DNA of 64,000 bases from Stylophora pistillata. Taxonomy: Eukaryota. Numbering within the stretch: position 1 is the first letter of the stretch; every line of letters starts with the position of its first letter. Positions 42,001-48,000 of this stretch are shown piece by piece. Where the stretch lies: positions 470,174 through 534,173 of the forward strand of contig NW_019217964.1 in the NCBI RefSeq assembly GCF_002571385.2, written 5' to 3'. Made by a program: the position numbers.

Positions 42001-45000
42001 GGCTTGTTAGCTCAATCAGTAGAGCACTGCACTAGTATCGCAGAGGTCAGTGGTTCGAATCCCATACAGGCCTGAACTTTATCAGGTCTGATTTTCACTA
42101 TTGTTAAATAGTGCTCTTTACTGCAAGGATCGTGCATAAATACGTCAATAGTATGTGTTGCACAGGCCATGAGGTGGCAAAAAAGCAAACAATGTTTGAT
42201 CAACAGTGAGCAAAGGAGGCCTACAAATTGATTCCTGTTTATTACAGCTGTGATTCTGGCAGTGATGTCTGAGAGACTCAATTTTTGATTGGTAGTGTGT
42301 TCCCAGCTGGGTTTGCTTTGTTTCCAGGAGTGGTTTGATGATGAGACATAATTATTTTGCTTGCTAAGCAAAATTTTAAATGAAAATGTTTGATCTAGAT
42401 TTAACATGAAAAGCCAATAAAAAGTACTGCTGAAGTCAGTTAAACATGCTCTTTTAACATAATGTTCAACTGATACTATAGGTTTAATTGTTGCAAATTT
42501 TGGAGAAGTTTCACCCAGGGAAAGCATGTGGAAGTAAAGGACTTAGTAGACTAAAATGAATAGAATTATTTTTTTGTTTTGTTGGTTTTTGTTTCTTTTC
42601 TTTCCTTACTTGTGATTTCATTACCAAATATCATGTGGAATGTGTTCTCCCAGTGATGATGAAGATATGATGGTTAAGAATACCCATAAAAAATGCAAGA
42701 AATCCAGTGAGGCAGTGGAAAATCCAGAAAGACTAGCCAGGACTGTCTTTGTTGGAAACCTTCCAGTGACATTTACTAGAAAGGTCAGTAGCAATATTTA
42801 ATGAGAGCTAAAGCCTTTCATTAAAAAGTCAAGAAATTGTCACCTAACAGTGTTCTCATTAAGTACTGACTGCCACCTTAAAGACTGGATACCTGGATTC
42901 TGAGCTGCCTTCTTTTTGTAAGATAATGTATGTTAGTTGTGAACAGTAAACTGTAATAAAAATTAAAACATTGCATTGCAAAGTTAAGGAATGTGAAAAA
43001 CCTATGGCTGTGGCAATCACAATAATATTATAGATGTTCACTTGTACCTTACATTTTTTGTTAGAAACTGAAACAGATGTTTGCCAATTATGGTGATGTG
43101 GAGAGTGTTAGATTTCGCTCAGTGGTAAGTGCTATCTACATTTTAGTATTTAGAGTTGCCTCAAGTTTAAATTGACTGCGACTCTTCCTTGATGAAAATA
43201 AACAAACAAAATTGTGACAGTTTGGTGAGATAATACAAAAGCTGCAATTCTTCACATGATCATGGAGACCATCTTGGGAAATTGCTAAGAGAGATTCTAG
43301 CTTCCAAGGCAAACACAGTTAACACTTGCACCCAAGATATAATTTAAAGAGACTCAAATGCTAATCAGAAGCTCAAGAATTTTTTATGACCTATGGTTTG
43401 AAACCTAGTGGCCAAAGAATTCTTTCCAAAGGAAACAAGGGACCCTTTTGGATCAGTCATAAAGCAGAAGATGATTAAAGAATATGATAAATATCTTTGA
43501 TATAGAACATAGAGAGCACTCAGAACAGAAAACTGTGAATACAGAGCTTTTAAATGTTTATGCAAGAATGGATCAAAATGTTTTTGTGATTCCCACTTTA
43601 AGTACCATTGAATTGAACCCAGTCAAAATAACCATGACAACGGTCACTCTGTTAGGCCAGTGGTAGGACTGTTCTCTAGAATGAGCACACAATTTTGTGG
43701 ATCTACTTATGTGTTATTGAAGAAAACAAGATAACCACCATGACCTAGGAACTTCACCAATTCTCACTAACCTAGACATTCACAACTAAAAGTAGCCTGT
43801 AGGCCTTGGGGTATGTAGAGGTTTCAAGCTGCAATTTGTTTTAAATATATTGGAATCACTGAGTGATCAAACTTAGGAGAACTAAGAAACTTTTTAATTA
43901 AGCTAGGGTTAAAGTTTCACTACTGTGTGGTGAACAAGAGTTGGGCTGGCTAATGTAGTAAGACATAATAATTGAGTGGAATTGGTTTAATTTCAATTGT
44001 TTGCATCCCTAACAGGCTGCTATACGAGTATGTGAAGCTAATCCGATCCTAAAAATTTTATCGAACAAATTAAAAGAATAAATAGAAAATTTTATTTAAC
44101 AGCTTTCAAACACCAATGAGATAATGGAGTTTAATTGATGGTTTGAATAACTAATGAGCCTTGTCTCCTTTCAAGTTTTCTGTTGCACTAGTATTTTTCT
44201 TCAATGAAACAAGCAATTGATCACCATTCTTAAACTGATTTATTTTCTGCTTCCTAGATTTGATGGTCTTATTTTTTGTCAAAAGAACTTGCAAATTAAG
44301 AGTATAACATTATTGCCATTGTTTGTACCTCCAAATTGCAGAGTATTTGTTTCAATAGGCAGTTGATGATGTTGAATAGCTGATGGGGAAACTTCCTCCT
44401 CTGCTAGCATGTTTACTCATCTTATATTTAGCTTGTATGGTCCATAATACTTTTGAATAAATATTCAGAAAACAATTTCCTTTCACAGTTTATAAACTTA
44501 TTAAGTGTAAAACCCTTAATTCAGAAAAATAAAATATTCTGCCTAGACAGTTGTTAATAATTAATGCTTAAAAATATATATCAGGTTTTGAGTGAATTAT
44601 GTTTTGACAACCTGGCAGATGTTCAGTTTGGATAAAACCTGATAAGCTAAATACACAGATTTGTGGACAATATTGTGAGAAGTATGGAAGATCCTCATGA
44701 ATGGAACAAGATAATTTTGAAAGCATTGGAAACTGTTTCAAAGAAAGATCTTGATTCGTTGGATTTGAAATTTAGTGGCATTCAAAATGTTCCAAGAGGG
44801 TTGGGTGAACTCAATCTTTCTCATCTGAAATATTTTTATCTACAAGGTAATAACCTTTCCTTTTTACCAGATGAGTTTTTTCCTTGTCTTAAAAATCTGG
44901 TGTGGCTTGATCTGAGAGACAATAAACTTCACGAAATTCCACAGAATATTGGAGAACACAGGAATATAAAGACATTGTTGTTAGGGAGGAATCAGCTCAA

Positions 45001-48000
45001 ACATCTCCCGTTGGAGTTAGGGGTTATCAAGACACTAACGGGGCTAAATTTATCAAATAACCCTTTGGAAGAGCCTCCACAAACTGTGGTTGAAAGAGGA
45101 GTTTATGCCATCAAGCACTATCTATTGACTAAGCTTGGGGTGAATCCAGGATACTTTCAATGTGATGCAAATGAATCAGAATACCAGAGTACAGAAAGTG
45201 GATCAGATAGCTCACATACAGACAACAAGGAAAAGAAAAATAATTGCACAGATAAGTTACTGATGGCAGATGGTGGCAGTCATGATAATGGTAATCAAGG
45301 TTCAACAAAGGTAGTCTGCCCAAGAGAAGCTATGTCTTATTATGGAGCACTGCTTGGCAACATTCCAAAGTCCTACATCATTAAACCATGGAAGACAGGA
45401 GTCTTTTTCAAAAAGGAACAGATGGTTGATCTCTCACTTGAAAATTGTGACAAAGATGACATTGAAGAACAGTGACTCATTTATGTCCATAATTATTGTC
45501 TATGTGCATGGCTGTGAAAGACTACTCAATGATATCAAGTAAAAGATATTCTAATTCTTGAGTTATGGAAGATTGTCTAGAGCTTTGAAATGACAATGTC
45601 CTGAAGTGTGTTTGTGTTGAGCACAAGTGGAATTGTGATTGCAAATTTTATATTTTGATTTACAAATTGGTTGAGTGTTGTCTTCATTTAGATGTTAATA
45701 GTAACTCATTAAGTGAGCACAAAATCTACAGTTGTAATAGGTATAAAGGTTATGAAGTGAAAGCAAGCCCTGAGTCCTATCATAGCATTCTGAACTCTCT
45801 CCCTTTCCTCTCTAGTGTTTTCTGTTCATACCTGTCATACCACAGTAGAAATTATTATGAACAGTAGACAATCTAATTTGCTTGCGAATAAATCATTTTA
45901 CTCACTAAAGACCCTTTTAATGGCAATCAAATCAAGTTTGCTGAGGTTTGTCACAGCAGTGATGATCGGTCAATATCAACTTTTCCCATGCTCATGTTAT
46001 TGCTTTAGATGAAAAAATTCAGTCAGCTGTCTTAAATAATGAGTAAAGATTCATAAAAAAAGATGCAGCACTTAATGTCCTTGATGCATGTCCCTATTAC
46101 AACAGCAGCTGTCTTCTTTGTAAGCATGTTTTCGACTGACTTTTTTGAATGACGTCATTTTTGATAGGAAGGACTTGAGGAATTTAGTTTGCAATGACAT
46201 TTCACAGAATCCTACAGGAGATAAGACAAAGAAAGTGATTAAGGGAACTGAGAGAGAGATATGCAAACCAATGCTTGAGAGCTGAATCAAATGAATAATG
46301 TGTTAAACAGTGACACCACACTGAGCCAAGTGCAAATCAAATGAATAATGTGTTAAACAGTGACACCACACTGAGCCAAGTGCAAATCAAATGAATAATG
46401 TGTTAAACAGTGACACCACACTGAGCCAAGTGAAAATCATTTCTTCTTATTTAAGATTGACACTCAACTATGTTTGAAGACAACACTACCTAGTATTGTC
46501 AGTGTCAAAGAGATCAAACAAATCAGTAGGGGACTACATGTATCTCTAGAAACCTGGTTTCTAAACTCTATATGATCGAACATATATATCCTTTTGAGAT
46601 CTGCTTAGATTACATATTGGAGAGCAGCTTTGTTTGTTATAAGTATGATACATTGTGTACTTTACTTATTGTGCATCTTTTTTGCAGGCACTTGCTAAAC
46701 CAGGCCTATCAAGAAAAGTGGCAATGAAAAAGTAATGTTACAAACATGTGTTTTGAACTTGTTTTAATTTAGTCATTTGAGGTGGTACAGTTAAACCTGT
46801 ATTAAGTGGCACTGAATTAAGTGGTCACCCTGGATTAAGAAGTTGGTTGCCAAAGTCCAGAATTTCTTTCCCGTTAATCTCAGATAAAGGTGAAAAATTA
46901 CAGAGACTCTGTAATTTTCACCTTTATTGTTCAGTCAGCTCTATTGAGCGGTCTCAGTCACCCTTTACCAAGGCTTAAAGGTCTCTTTTTATTGTCTTCC
47001 ACCTGTGTTGTCTTCCACCTGTGTTGTCTTCCACCTGTGTTGTCTTCCACCTGTGTTGTCTTCCACCTGTATTGAACGGTCACTTGAAGCCGAACCACTC
47101 GAATGAAACTAAGAATAATTGTTCAAGTAACTTTTGAATCATGTTTCTTTCCCAAAATCAAAGTAAGTCATATTTTTTAATGAGATTCTGCACATAATGT
47201 TTTGAATTATGGTGCAAAGTGATGTTGTGCACATTTTATGACATTATTATTTATGGTCTGCATGCTTTGCGCTTAAGTGATAAATCAAAGCAGAAAACAC
47301 TTGATCTGTAAATCACAGCACAGACTCCAAACTGGGTTTGTAAGAGGTATGCATTTGAAAGCATTGATATGTGTATCAAATTTATGACTCTTCAGACAAA
47401 TTATGAGTGAAACTGTTGTTAGTCTTCTCATTGTCTCTTCTGGAGGAGAAAAATCAATACAAATAAATTATTTGCCCTGTTTTGTTATTTTGAAATACAG
47501 TATAGCAACTAAATGTTATTTAGTACATGTTTTCCAGTATCAATTGTGCACTATCTAACAAAGCATTCTTTTTTCTTTTGTAGAAGAGAGTTTCATCCAG
47601 ATCGGCACAATATCAATGCTTATGTTGTCTTCAGAGAGAGGGAGTGTGCGGTCAAATCTTTAAGCAGGTGTTGATTGAAGGTTTTTAACTTGGCTATCAG
47701 AGATGACCTCTTACCATCTGTTGTATAACTCTTCTTCAATTTTCTTATTTGCAATATCTGATACATGTTAAGCAAATAGAGCAGACTGTACATTACCTGT
47801 TAAGTACAGAATAATGCAGTTCTTTAACAAAACTTATGGTTCCAAATTTTGTCTTCCTTCTACTGCTAGTAATGGTTTGGACGTTGGTGGGTTTCACATC
47901 AGAGTTGATATAACTAGAAAAGATATTGAGGTATGCTAGAACTACTGCTGAATACCAATTTGTGTTTGTCCATTAAAAATAATTTTATCTGCTGTGATCA

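What the first reader, a model, noticed from the sequence alone, without database searches (positions are those of the whole stretch)
44684..45475. Intact intronless LRRC27-like gene nested on the same strand inside RBM34 intron 5
Seen: a 263-codon ORF without stops lies between RBM34 exons 5 (ends 43124) and 6 (starts 46688), which split RRM1. Candidate acceptors at 44618 and 44658 join RBM34 exon 5 out of frame or into a stop, so a simple RBM34-LRR fusion is not supported. Established: nested genes are usually antisense to the host. Inference: a retrocopy expressed from its own intronic promoter, or through intronic polyadenylation that would be mutually exclusive with full-length RBM34.
Basis: partly seen in the sequence, partly recalled or inferred. 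Interest (0 to 1): 0.7.

Follow-up and report, generated by a model that had tools for sequence, protein, structure and literature searches.

The report
Intronless LRR gene inside RBM34 intron
A complete, uninterrupted gene for a small leucine-rich-repeat protein lies, pointing the same way, inside an intron of an RBM34-type ribosome-assembly gene in a non-human animal genome; it is real, but it is an ordinary gene-within-a-gene.

Summary
Window 44684-45475 (+) is an ATG-to-TGA frame of 263 codons. It lies in a 3563-nt intron between two same-strand exons of a two-RRM gene, 43065-43124 and 46688-46731. None of 1000 dinucleotide shuffles of the intron gave a frame that long. The N-terminal half is five intact leucine-rich repeats (Pfam LRR_8). 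The nearest protein-atlas clusters are named LRRC27, but only narrowly ahead of SHOC2-type. The C-terminal 128 residues match nothing. No acceptor joins a phase-0 host donor in frame, so a fusion is not supported. Retrocopy hallmarks are absent: no A-tract and no convincing flanking duplication. The ORF is as CpG-depleted as its host gene body (o/e 0.15 against 0.21). That argues for long residence, which an unconstrained frame would rarely survive. Best reading: an old, constrained, independently expressed nested gene. Same-strand nesting is common in the literature read. Interest is low.

The parts
44684..45475 (+). Complete ORF, ATG to TGA, 263 codons (protein P0001); the nested gene's coding sequence
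   Evidence: The ATG has A at -3 and G at +4. The atlas holds the same 263-aa protein letter for letter.
44648..44650 (+). In-frame TAA 11 codons upstream of the ATG; it closes the frame on the 5' side
44750..45100 (+). Five leucine-rich repeats (residues 23-139) with the consensus hydrophobic and Asn positions kept, followed by a short helical cap
   Evidence: Pfam LRR_8 9.2e-12, 45 bits (cut-off 27); LRR_1 and LRR_4 also above cut-off. 274 PDB sequences at E<=0.001, led by LIC12759 1.4e-39 and SHOC2 7.6e-35. Repeat register printed.
45101..45472 (+). C-terminal 124 residues: Ser/Asp/Asn-rich stretch, then a hydrophobic/basic segment; no known domain
   Evidence: No Pfam family at E<=10 and no PDB sequence at E<=10 for residues 136-263. 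No usable atlas feature hit. It still shows a coding-type codon-position pattern (GC1 0.47, GC2 0.34, GC3 0.35), with 4 and 15 stops in the other forward frames.
45887..45892 (+). First AATAAA after the stop, 412 nt downstream; candidate polyadenylation signal of the nested gene (inference)
   Evidence: AATAAA at 44921 and ATTAAA at 45380 lie inside the ORF.
44575..44581 (+). TATA-like run about 105 nt upstream of the ATG; candidate only, expected often by chance in 33% GC sequence
   Evidence: Read; no test made
43125..46687 (+). Host intron holding the nested gene: GTAAGT...TTGCAG, 3563 nt, the longest of the four host introns measured (281, 3563, 852, 202 nt)
   Evidence: Unique within the window apart from one internal tandem repeat. 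No N run.
43065..43124 (+).
   Evidence: Pfam RRM_1 profile positions 14-31, E 0.024
46688..46731 (+).
   Evidence: phases add up through 47584-47667 and 47870-47930
42654..42783 (+). Host exon carrying the start of the first RRM (RNP2-type motif)
   Evidence: no Pfam or PDB hit on its own
47584..47667 (+). Host exon, continuation of the first RRM
   Evidence: its only PDB match is yeast Nop12, E 0.25
47870..47930 (+). Host exon, end of the first RRM
   Evidence: no Pfam hit on its own
49355..49473 (+). Host exon, core of the second RRM
   Evidence: Pfam RRM_1 3.3e-11; PDB Nop12 1.6e-8 among 258 hits

Best explanation
This is an independent, single-exon protein-coding gene nested in sense orientation inside the longest measured intron of an RBM34/Nop12-type gene, in a non-human, invertebrate-looking genome.

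Shown:
- It encodes a 263-aa protein without a signal-like N-terminus.
- The protein has a short N-terminal helix, five typical leucine-rich repeats, a helical cap, and a 124-residue tail with no known relatives.

Inferred:
- The protein is a small cytosolic LRR adaptor that binds partner proteins on its repeat surface. It is closest to, but shorter than, proteins named LRRC27.
- The gene has been in this intron for a long time and is kept intact by selection.
- It is transcribed from its own promoter in the ~100-250 nt upstream of the ATG, and its mRNA ends after the AATAAA at 45887.
- The host polymerase has to read through these signals, and the whole unit is removed when the intron is spliced out.
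- Whether it began as a retrocopy cannot be told. If it did, the event is old enough that tail and target-site duplications have decayed.
For: Real and far beyond chance:
- 0 of 1000 shuffles reached the ORF's length, and P is 3.9e-10.
- The codon-position pattern is coding-type in both halves, with 14 and 27 stops in the other two forward frames.

Looks like a complete unit:
- All five repeats keep the LRR consensus.
- The ATG has purine at -3 and G at +4, with an in-frame stop 11 codons upstream.
- A public collection holds exactly this 263-aa protein.

Not a host exon:
- The four AGs between the upstream stop and the ATG give exon starts at 44647, 44659, 44680 and 44683. All are out of frame with the phase-0 host donors, and their pyrimidine tracts are weak (0.42-0.47).
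- Only 1 donor-like site scoring at least 5 of 7 lies in 44684-45900. It is at 44847, in phase 1, inside a repeat's Gly-Asn codons.

Long residence:
- CpG o/e is 0.15 in the ORF (4 CpG in 792 nt). It is 0.12 and 0.14 in the intron flanks and 0.21 over 39700-50400.
- The window's other single-ORF genes have 1.04 (DnaJ) and 0.86 (C2), and 18-36 kb averages about 1.0.
- All 6 Arg codons are AGR.
- CpG loss marks germline-methylated gene bodies in invertebrates (established knowledge; PMC8857923, start of abstract seen in the listing).

Constraint:
- With substitutions only, a neutral copy stays open in 15% of 4000 simulations at 0.05 substitutions per site. The figure falls to 2.5% at 0.10 and 0.2% at 0.20.

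No sign of recent arrival:
- The intron has no other copy in the window, and there is no tail or convincing flanking repeat.
Against: - There is no expression evidence of any kind, no orthologue, no dN/dS and no promoter test.
- The CpG argument fails if the source gene was already CpG-poor when copied. A young copy of such a gene would look the same.
- The protein is 113-274 aa shorter than the LRRC27-named clusters, and its tail matches nothing. It could be a truncated derivative.
- AATAAA at 44921 and ATTAAA at 45380 sit inside the ORF on the coding strand.
- The single-sequence AlphaFold2 model was unusable (mean pLDDT 35.6). The atlas's own model is only moderate (pLDDT 0.63, pTM 0.59).
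Confidence: 0.6

Rival explanations
1. A young processed pseudogene, or an otherwise unconstrained copy, whose frame is still open only because too little time has passed.
For: There are no introns in 792 nt of coding sequence. It is short relative to the LRRC27-named clusters. At 0.01-0.02 substitutions per site, 67-47% of neutral copies stay open. No selection test was possible.
Against: A young retrocopy should still carry an A-tail and target-site duplications, and neither is present. The ORF's CpG content matches the host gene body (0.15 against 0.12-0.21), which takes time unless the parent was equally depleted. All five repeats are intact.
Confidence: 0.12
2. One exon of a larger gene. 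Further exons, either a spliced 5' UTR or more coding exons of a full-length LRRC27-type protein, lie elsewhere in the intron or beyond it.
For: LRRC27-named clusters are 376-537 aa. Pyrimidine-rich YAG acceptors exist upstream at exon starts 44258 and 44432, and a pyrimidine-rich CAG lies at 44486-44488 (read; the scan did not list it). Any of these could take a non-coding leader exon.
Against: The frame is closed by TAA 11 codons before a well-placed ATG and by TGA at the end. The only donor-like site scoring at least 5 of 7 in 44684-45900 is inside a repeat, in phase 1. tblastn of the protein against the window finds nothing else below E = 1.3. A public record holds the same 263-aa protein.
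Confidence: 0.15
3. An alternative terminal exon of the host. Host exons splice into the intron and end at an intronic polyadenylation site. This would give a truncated RBM34 message carrying the LRR frame as a fusion or as a downstream cistron.
For: The two genes share a strand. Candidate acceptors lie upstream and an AATAAA lies downstream. Premature host polyadenylation and 'exonization' upstream of nested genes are described in human (PMC3192792 abstract and passages; PMC11694760 introduction passage).
Against: Every acceptor examined gives a stop or the wrong frame with the phase-0 donors at 42783 and 43124. Open stretches are 1-41 codons for the four stronger upstream sites. For the four AGs next to the ATG they are 5-17 codons. 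A downstream cistron would be poorly translated by scanning ribosomes (established knowledge).
Confidence: 0.08
4. Assembly artefact or foreign (bacterial) DNA.
For: The best PDB hits are Leptospira LRR proteins.
Against: There is no N run between 39135 and 64000. GC is 0.376 in the ORF against 0.332 and 0.346 in the flanks, and CpG depletion is the same as in the flanks. The scan of 185,579 prokaryotic species' genomes gave 45 pattern matches and 0 relatives. High scores to bacterial LRR proteins come from summing many repeats (4-6 stretches per hit).
Confidence: 0.02

Closest known systems
LRRC27 (leucine-rich repeat-containing protein 27), named clusters of the protein atlas
   Same: It is the nearest by language-model features: rank 1 (0.97, 197 of 256 shared), rank 3 (0.96, 179) and rank 4 (0.96, 184). 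By the atlas's own model, TM is 0.54-0.55 over residues 1-196 and 4-234. Both have an N-terminal block of typical intracellular-type repeats followed by a cap.
   Different: It is 263 aa against 376-537 aa. The C-terminal 128 residues have no usable match. A SHOC2-type cluster scores almost the same (0.96, 187), and Sog2 and LRCH4 clusters have higher TM (0.60, 0.57). No alignment, E-value or tree was possible. LRRC27 itself has no described function in the 20 titles and abstracts listed, out of 77 papers holding the name.
SHOC2 / RSU1 / Leptospira LIC-type 'typical' LRR proteins (solved structures)
   Same: The repeat sequence is the same type: 23-24-residue repeats ending in a Leu-Pro turn. 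E-values are 1.4e-39 (LIC12759), 7.6e-35 (SHOC2) and 1.9e-17 (RSU1). It probably works the same way, as a curved repeat surface that binds partner proteins (inference).
   Different: Those proteins have 7-20 repeats against five here. The high scores sum repeated local matches. No shared flanking domain.
Single-exon protein-coding genes nested in introns of other genes (CHML in OPN3; OMP in an intron of a calpain gene)
   Same: The whole coding unit lies within one host intron. Both examples are described as nested coding genes (PMC3192792, figure-1 legend; PMC6549253, start of abstract in the listing). About 41% of human nested genes are single-exon and about 37% share the host's strand (PMC3192792, Introduction). 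Nested genes sit mostly in large introns (PMC11694760, Discussion passage), as here.
   Different: This is a different gene pair in a different, non-mammalian genome. No paper in the library holds both LRRC27 and RBM34 (0 papers).
Processed retrogenes
   Same: No introns in the coding sequence; located inside an intron of an unrelated gene.
   Different: No A-tail relic, no convincing target-site duplication, no known parent. The N-terminus is kept while the C-terminal part typical of the named family is absent. That is the opposite of the usual 5' truncation of retrocopies (established knowledge).

Membership tests
Leucine-rich repeat proteins (Pfam LRR clan) | Tandem 20-29-residue repeats with the LxxLxLxxNxL core | tested here: met
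   LRR_8 45 bits (cut-off 27), LRR_1 29.9 (20.6), LRR_4 27.2 (27). Five repeats in register. 274 PDB sequences at E<=0.001.
LRRC27 | Closer to LRRC27 proteins than to any other LRR family | tested here: inconclusive
   The atlas feature search puts LRRC27-named clusters at ranks 1, 3 and 4. The margin over a SHOC2-type cluster is 0.97 against 0.96, and structure TM does not favour LRRC27. The tool gives no alignment or E-value.
LRRC27 | Full-length architecture: repeats plus the long C-terminal region of the named clusters (376-537 aa) | tested here: not met
   263 aa. Residues 136-263 have no atlas, Pfam or PDB match.
LRRC27 | Orthology by reciprocal best hits or phylogeny | not testable with these tools
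Processed retrocopy | Poly(A) tail relic at the 3' end | tested here: not met
   No 12-nt window with at least 10 A between 45476 and 46687.
Processed retrocopy | Target-site duplications flanking the insert | tested here: not met
   The best repeats straddling the ORF are 44495/45703 (12 of 13 nt) and 44396/46113 (15 of 19 nt). Neither is next to an A-tract. They sit among 31 direct-repeat families of similar size in the intron.
Processed retrocopy | An intron-containing parent gene whose spliced mRNA matches the copy | not testable with these tools
   Only this 64-kb window is held. tblastn finds no second copy in it.
Nested (intronic) gene | The whole gene lies within one intron of a host gene | tested here: met
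   The coding sequence 44684-45475 lies inside intron 43125-46687, with canonical GT..AG and consistent exon phases. Transcript ends are not known.
RBM34 / Nop12 (host gene) | Two RRM domains preceded by a basic N-terminal region | tested here: met
   Searched exon by exon: RRM_1 at 43065-43124 (E 0.024) and 49330-49485 (3.3e-11). Lys/Arg-rich small exons and tail.
RBM34 / Nop12 (host gene) | Closer to Nop12/RBM34 than to other RRM proteins | tested here: inconclusive
   Exon 47585-47665 has Nop12 as its only PDB hit, but at E 0.25. For the second-RRM exon, Nop12 is at 1.6e-8 behind PABP and hnRNP A/B. Exon 42655-42783 has 0 hits. The joined model was not searched.

The most novel reading that the evidence does not exclude
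The nested gene and its host form a regulated pair. Firing of the intronic promoter, or use of the nested gene's polyadenylation signals by the host polymerase, would cut RBM34 transcripts short inside the first RRM. Expression of the LRR protein and of full-length RBM34 (a 60S-assembly factor) would then be mutually exclusive. The arrangement would be conserved for that reason across a clade of invertebrates.
Probability: 0.07. Interest if true: 0.45.

Novelty: new member of a known kind. Interest (0 to 1): 0.2.

Why it matters
As it stands, this is one more example of a common arrangement. By the papers read, more than a tenth of mammalian genes take part in host/nested pairs, and the two orientations are broadly similar in frequency (PMC11694760).

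Its modest value:
- It is a clean, gap-free case of a same-strand coding gene splitting an RRM-encoding region.
- The nested ORF shares the host's CpG depletion. That gives a sequence-only clue to long residence which could be applied to other nested genes in mosaic-methylated genomes.
- It would give a short, LRR-only relative of LRRC27, a protein with no described function.

If transcripts showed mutual exclusion with RBM34, it would be a usable invertebrate model of host/nested interference.

Tried and rejected
Structure
- AlphaFold2 on the single sequence gave mean pLDDT 35.6 and pTM 0.23, with all 263 residues below 50. The model is unusable, so no fold search was run.

C-terminal half
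- Atlas search of residues 136-263: no usable feature hit, structure TM 0.29 or lower.
- Pfam at E<=10: 0 families. PDB at E<=10: 0 sequences.

Host gene
- Exon 42655-42783 against PDB: 0 hits at E<=10. Pfam gave nothing for 6 of the 8 exon-sized pieces submitted.
- The spliced host model was searched exon by exon only. The joined protein was neither built nor searched, so the RBM34 label rests on single exons.

Origin and signals
- Prokaryotic origin: 45 pattern matches, 0 relatives.
- Fusion with the host: rejected on frames.
- Transposon carriage: the intron has no second copy in the window and no long terminal inverted repeats. The longest inverted pair straddling the ORF is 16 nt at 81%.
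- Rfam at gathering thresholds: nothing in the intron.

Literature
- 'LRRC27': 77 papers. The 20 listed are association or expression lists.
- 'LRRC27' with 'RBM34': 0 papers.
- Supplementary tables of the nested-gene papers were not seen.

Not checkable here
- Orthologues, synteny, dN/dS, a parent gene and any expression data.

Human check
- I do not take the window for human. Its CpG pattern is mosaic, about 1.0 alternating with 0.1-0.3. It also has tRNA-Thr-like repeats.

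
Full report
**What is there**

Window 44684-45475 on the + strand reads ATG to TGA without a stop: 792 nt, 263 codons plus the stop. The stop-to-stop frame opens only 11 codons earlier, after a TAA at 44648-44650. The ATG has A at -3 and G at +4.

This is far beyond chance for 35% GC sequence.
- None of 1000 dinucleotide-preserving shuffles of the surrounding 3563-nt intron produced an open frame of 274 codons on either strand (mean longest 97, maximum 188).
- The composition-based probability is 3.9e-10.
- Among 7486 N-free stop-to-stop frames of the whole window, the ORF ties for third longest.
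- Both halves of the ORF show a coding-type pattern (GC highest at codon position 1). The two other forward frames carry 14 and 27 stops.

**The host**

The exons were read directly from the sequence and searched exon by exon only. On the + strand they are:
- 42654-42783 (donor GTCAGT)
- 43065-43124 (acceptor TAG, donor GTAAGT; 60 nt, phase 0 to 0)
- 46688-46731 (acceptor CAG)
- 47584-47667
- 47870-47930
- 49355-49473
- further exons ending at a stop near 50355

The phases add up across these exons. The evidence for the host's identity:
- Pfam places 43065-43124 at RRM_1 profile positions 14-31 (E 0.024, below the cut-off). It places 49330-49485 in a second RRM (3.3e-11). The other six pieces submitted gave nothing on their own.
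- Against solved structures, exon 47585-47665 has a single hit, yeast Nop12 (E 0.25).
- The second-RRM exon hits Nop12 at 1.6e-8, among 258 RRM proteins.
- Exon 42655-42783 has no hit.
- A review table pairs yeast Nop12 with human RBM34 (PMC10068337, passage read).

It also agrees with my recollection of RBM34's first RRM, which is recall and comes from no call. The exon numbers 5 and 6 are plausible but unverified.

The intron 43125-46687 (GTAAGT...TTGCAG) interrupts the first RRM. It is the longest of the four host introns measured (281, 3563, 852, 202 nt). No N run lies between 39135 and the end of the window.

**The protein**

Residues 23-139 are five leucine-rich repeats in register, with the consensus positions kept.
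- Pfam: LRR_8 at 45 bits against a cut-off of 27; LRR_1 and LRR_4 are also above their cut-offs.
- PDB: 274 sequences match at E<=0.001. They are led by Leptospira LIC12759 (1.4e-39), LRRD1 and SHOC2 (about 1e-35), then RSU1 and LRRC8A (about 1e-17). These scores sum several repeat-on-repeat matches.

The 'LRRC27-like' label comes only from the protein atlas.
- By features, the clusters named LRRC27 are ranks 1, 3 and 4 (0.97, 0.96, 0.96; 197, 179 and 184 of 256 shared features). A SHOC2-type cluster is rank 2 at 0.96 with 187.
- By structure, LRRC27 clusters (TM 0.54-0.55) are not ahead of Sog2 (0.60) or LRCH4 (0.57).
- Those LRRC27 clusters are 376-537 aa.
- The last 128 residues here match nothing in the atlas, Pfam or PDB.

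I therefore file the protein as a short LRR protein whose nearest named relatives are LRRC27, not as an established member. The atlas holds this exact 263-aa sequence. That shows someone's gene prediction gave the same single-exon model. It does not show that the protein is made. A single-sequence AlphaFold2 model failed (pLDDT 35.6).

**Fusion with the host?**

Both upstream host donors (42783 and 43124) are phase 0.
- The four AGs between the in-frame stop and the ATG give exon starts at 44647, 44659, 44680 and 44683. All are out of frame, stop after 5-17 codons, and have weak pyrimidine tracts (0.42-0.47).
- The four stronger YAG sites upstream (43776, 44192, 44258, 44432) stop after 1-41 codons.
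- Inside the ORF and its 3' flank, only one donor-like site scores at least 5 of 7. It is at 44847, in phase 1, in the Gly-Asn codons of repeat 2.

**Retrocopy?**

The only argument for it is the lack of introns.
- No 12-nt window with at least 10 A exists from the stop to the next host exon.
- The best direct repeats straddling the ORF are 12 of 13 nt and 15 of 19 nt. They are not next to any A-tract and sit among 31 similar families in the intron.
- The intron has no other copy in the window, and the protein has no second match there.
- Two other genes in the window are also carried on single long ORFs: a DnaJ-domain protein and a C2-domain protein. Intron-poor genes may simply be frequent here.

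**An unplanned observation that bears on age**

The window is a CpG mosaic.
- The host gene body (39700-50400) has CpG o/e 0.21, with an excess of TG+CA (1.33).
- The stretch 18-36 kb is near 1.0. The DnaJ and C2 ORFs there have 1.04 and 0.86.
- The nested ORF has 0.15 (4 CpG in 792 nt), the same as its intron flanks (0.12 and 0.14).
- All six Arg codons are AGR.

CpG loss of this kind marks germline-methylated gene bodies in invertebrates. This is established knowledge; for PMC8857923 I saw only the start of the abstract in the listing.

Suppose the ORF arrived with ordinary CpG content. It has then sat in this gene body long enough to decay to the host's level. Over such a time an unconstrained frame would rarely survive. 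With substitutions alone, 15% of 4000 simulated copies stay open at 0.05 substitutions per site, 2.5% at 0.10 and 0.2% at 0.20.

The caveat is plain. A copy of an already CpG-poor parent would look the same on the day it arrived. The missing tail and duplications argue independently against a very recent arrival.

**Best reading**

It is an old, constrained, single-exon gene for a small cytosolic LRR adaptor protein. It is expressed on its own from within the intron and removed from host transcripts by splicing.
- Candidate signals are a TATA-like run at 44575-44581 and the first downstream AATAAA at 45887, 412 nt after the stop. Both are inference only.
- AATAAA at 44921 and ATTAAA at 45380 lie inside the ORF.

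Rivals:
- A young unconstrained copy.
- One exon of a larger gene.
- A host alternative terminal exon.
- An artefact or foreign DNA. The prokaryote genome scan gave 45 pattern matches and no relative. Composition matches the flanks.

**How unusual is it?**

- The premise that nested genes are usually antisense is weaker than stated. [quoted passage not shown]
- A later survey reports only a slight bias, with the two orientations broadly similar. It finds nested genes mostly in large introns and more than a tenth of genes involved in such pairs (PMC11694760, Results and Discussion passages).
- Premature host polyadenylation and exonization upstream of nested genes are described there for human genes.
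- No paper in the library holds both LRRC27 and RBM34. The 20 papers listed, out of 77 that mention LRRC27, are association or expression lists.

**What stayed unchecked**

- Expression, orthologues, synteny, dN/dS and the existence of a parent gene.
- Supplementary tables of the nested-gene papers were not seen.
- The N runs (15220-15384, 36014-36067, 38898-39134) were left as they are.
- I do not take the window for human, given the mosaic CpG pattern and the tRNA-like repeats.

**Verdict**

This is an ordinary instance of a known arrangement, of low interest unless transcripts show a regulated trade-off with the host.

Noticed in passing
window 1-64000 (2-kb bins); host body 39700-50400; 18001-36000: Mosaic CpG content. 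CpG o/e is about 1.0 over 18-36 kb. It is 0.11-0.33 over 40-52 kb, 0.18-0.32 over 10-18 kb, and 0.16-0.27 over 56-60 kb and 62-64 kb, with a TG+CA excess in the depleted blocks. It looks like the invertebrate pattern of methylated and unmethylated gene bodies.
   Followed up: partly
window 24919-25827 (-) and 27130-27954 (-): Two further genes carried on single long ORFs, both in the CpG-rich block: a DnaJ-domain protein (Pfam DnaJ 1.2e-17) and a C2-domain protein (C2 2.1e-12).
   Followed up: partly
window 35926-35998 (-), 36254-36326 (+), 42001-42073 (+): Three tRNA-Thr(AGT)-like sequences (Rfam 47-48 bits; ARAGORN). Two form an inverted pair around the N run 36014-36067. The third lies in a host intron beside an inverted partial copy (about 41640-41800). 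This suggests a tRNA-derived repeat rather than three tRNA genes.
   Followed up: partly
window 46285-46439: A 50-nt unit repeated 3.1 times at 99% identity, inside the same intron about 800 nt downstream of the nested ORF.
   Followed up: no
window 40157-40268, 46992-47074, 49119-49169: Other tandem arrays in host introns: 15-nt x 7.5, 16-nt x 5.2, and (TCA)17.
   Followed up: no
window 54090-54428 (+), also 60229-60642 and 63210-63548 (+): Open frames downstream of the host on the same strand. From recollection alone they resemble the N-terminal region of ARID4-type proteins, and ARID4B neighbours RBM34 in human as I recall. Pfam found no family for any of them, so this is a lead from memory, not a result.
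   Followed up: partly
window 5650-6567, 7547-7921, 8286-8864, 17966-18589, 38308-39567 (+): Fragments that look like retroelement ORFs. One has a weak GIY-YIG match (E 1.6e-4, 22.3 bits against a cut-off of 22.6) of the kind I recall from Penelope-like elements. The 305-aa frame at 5650-6567 has no Pfam family.
   Followed up: no
window 44921-44926 and 45380-45385 (+): AATAAA and ATTAAA hexamers inside the nested coding sequence, on the strand that both the nested gene and the host transcribe. Whether they are ever used is unknown.
   Followed up: no
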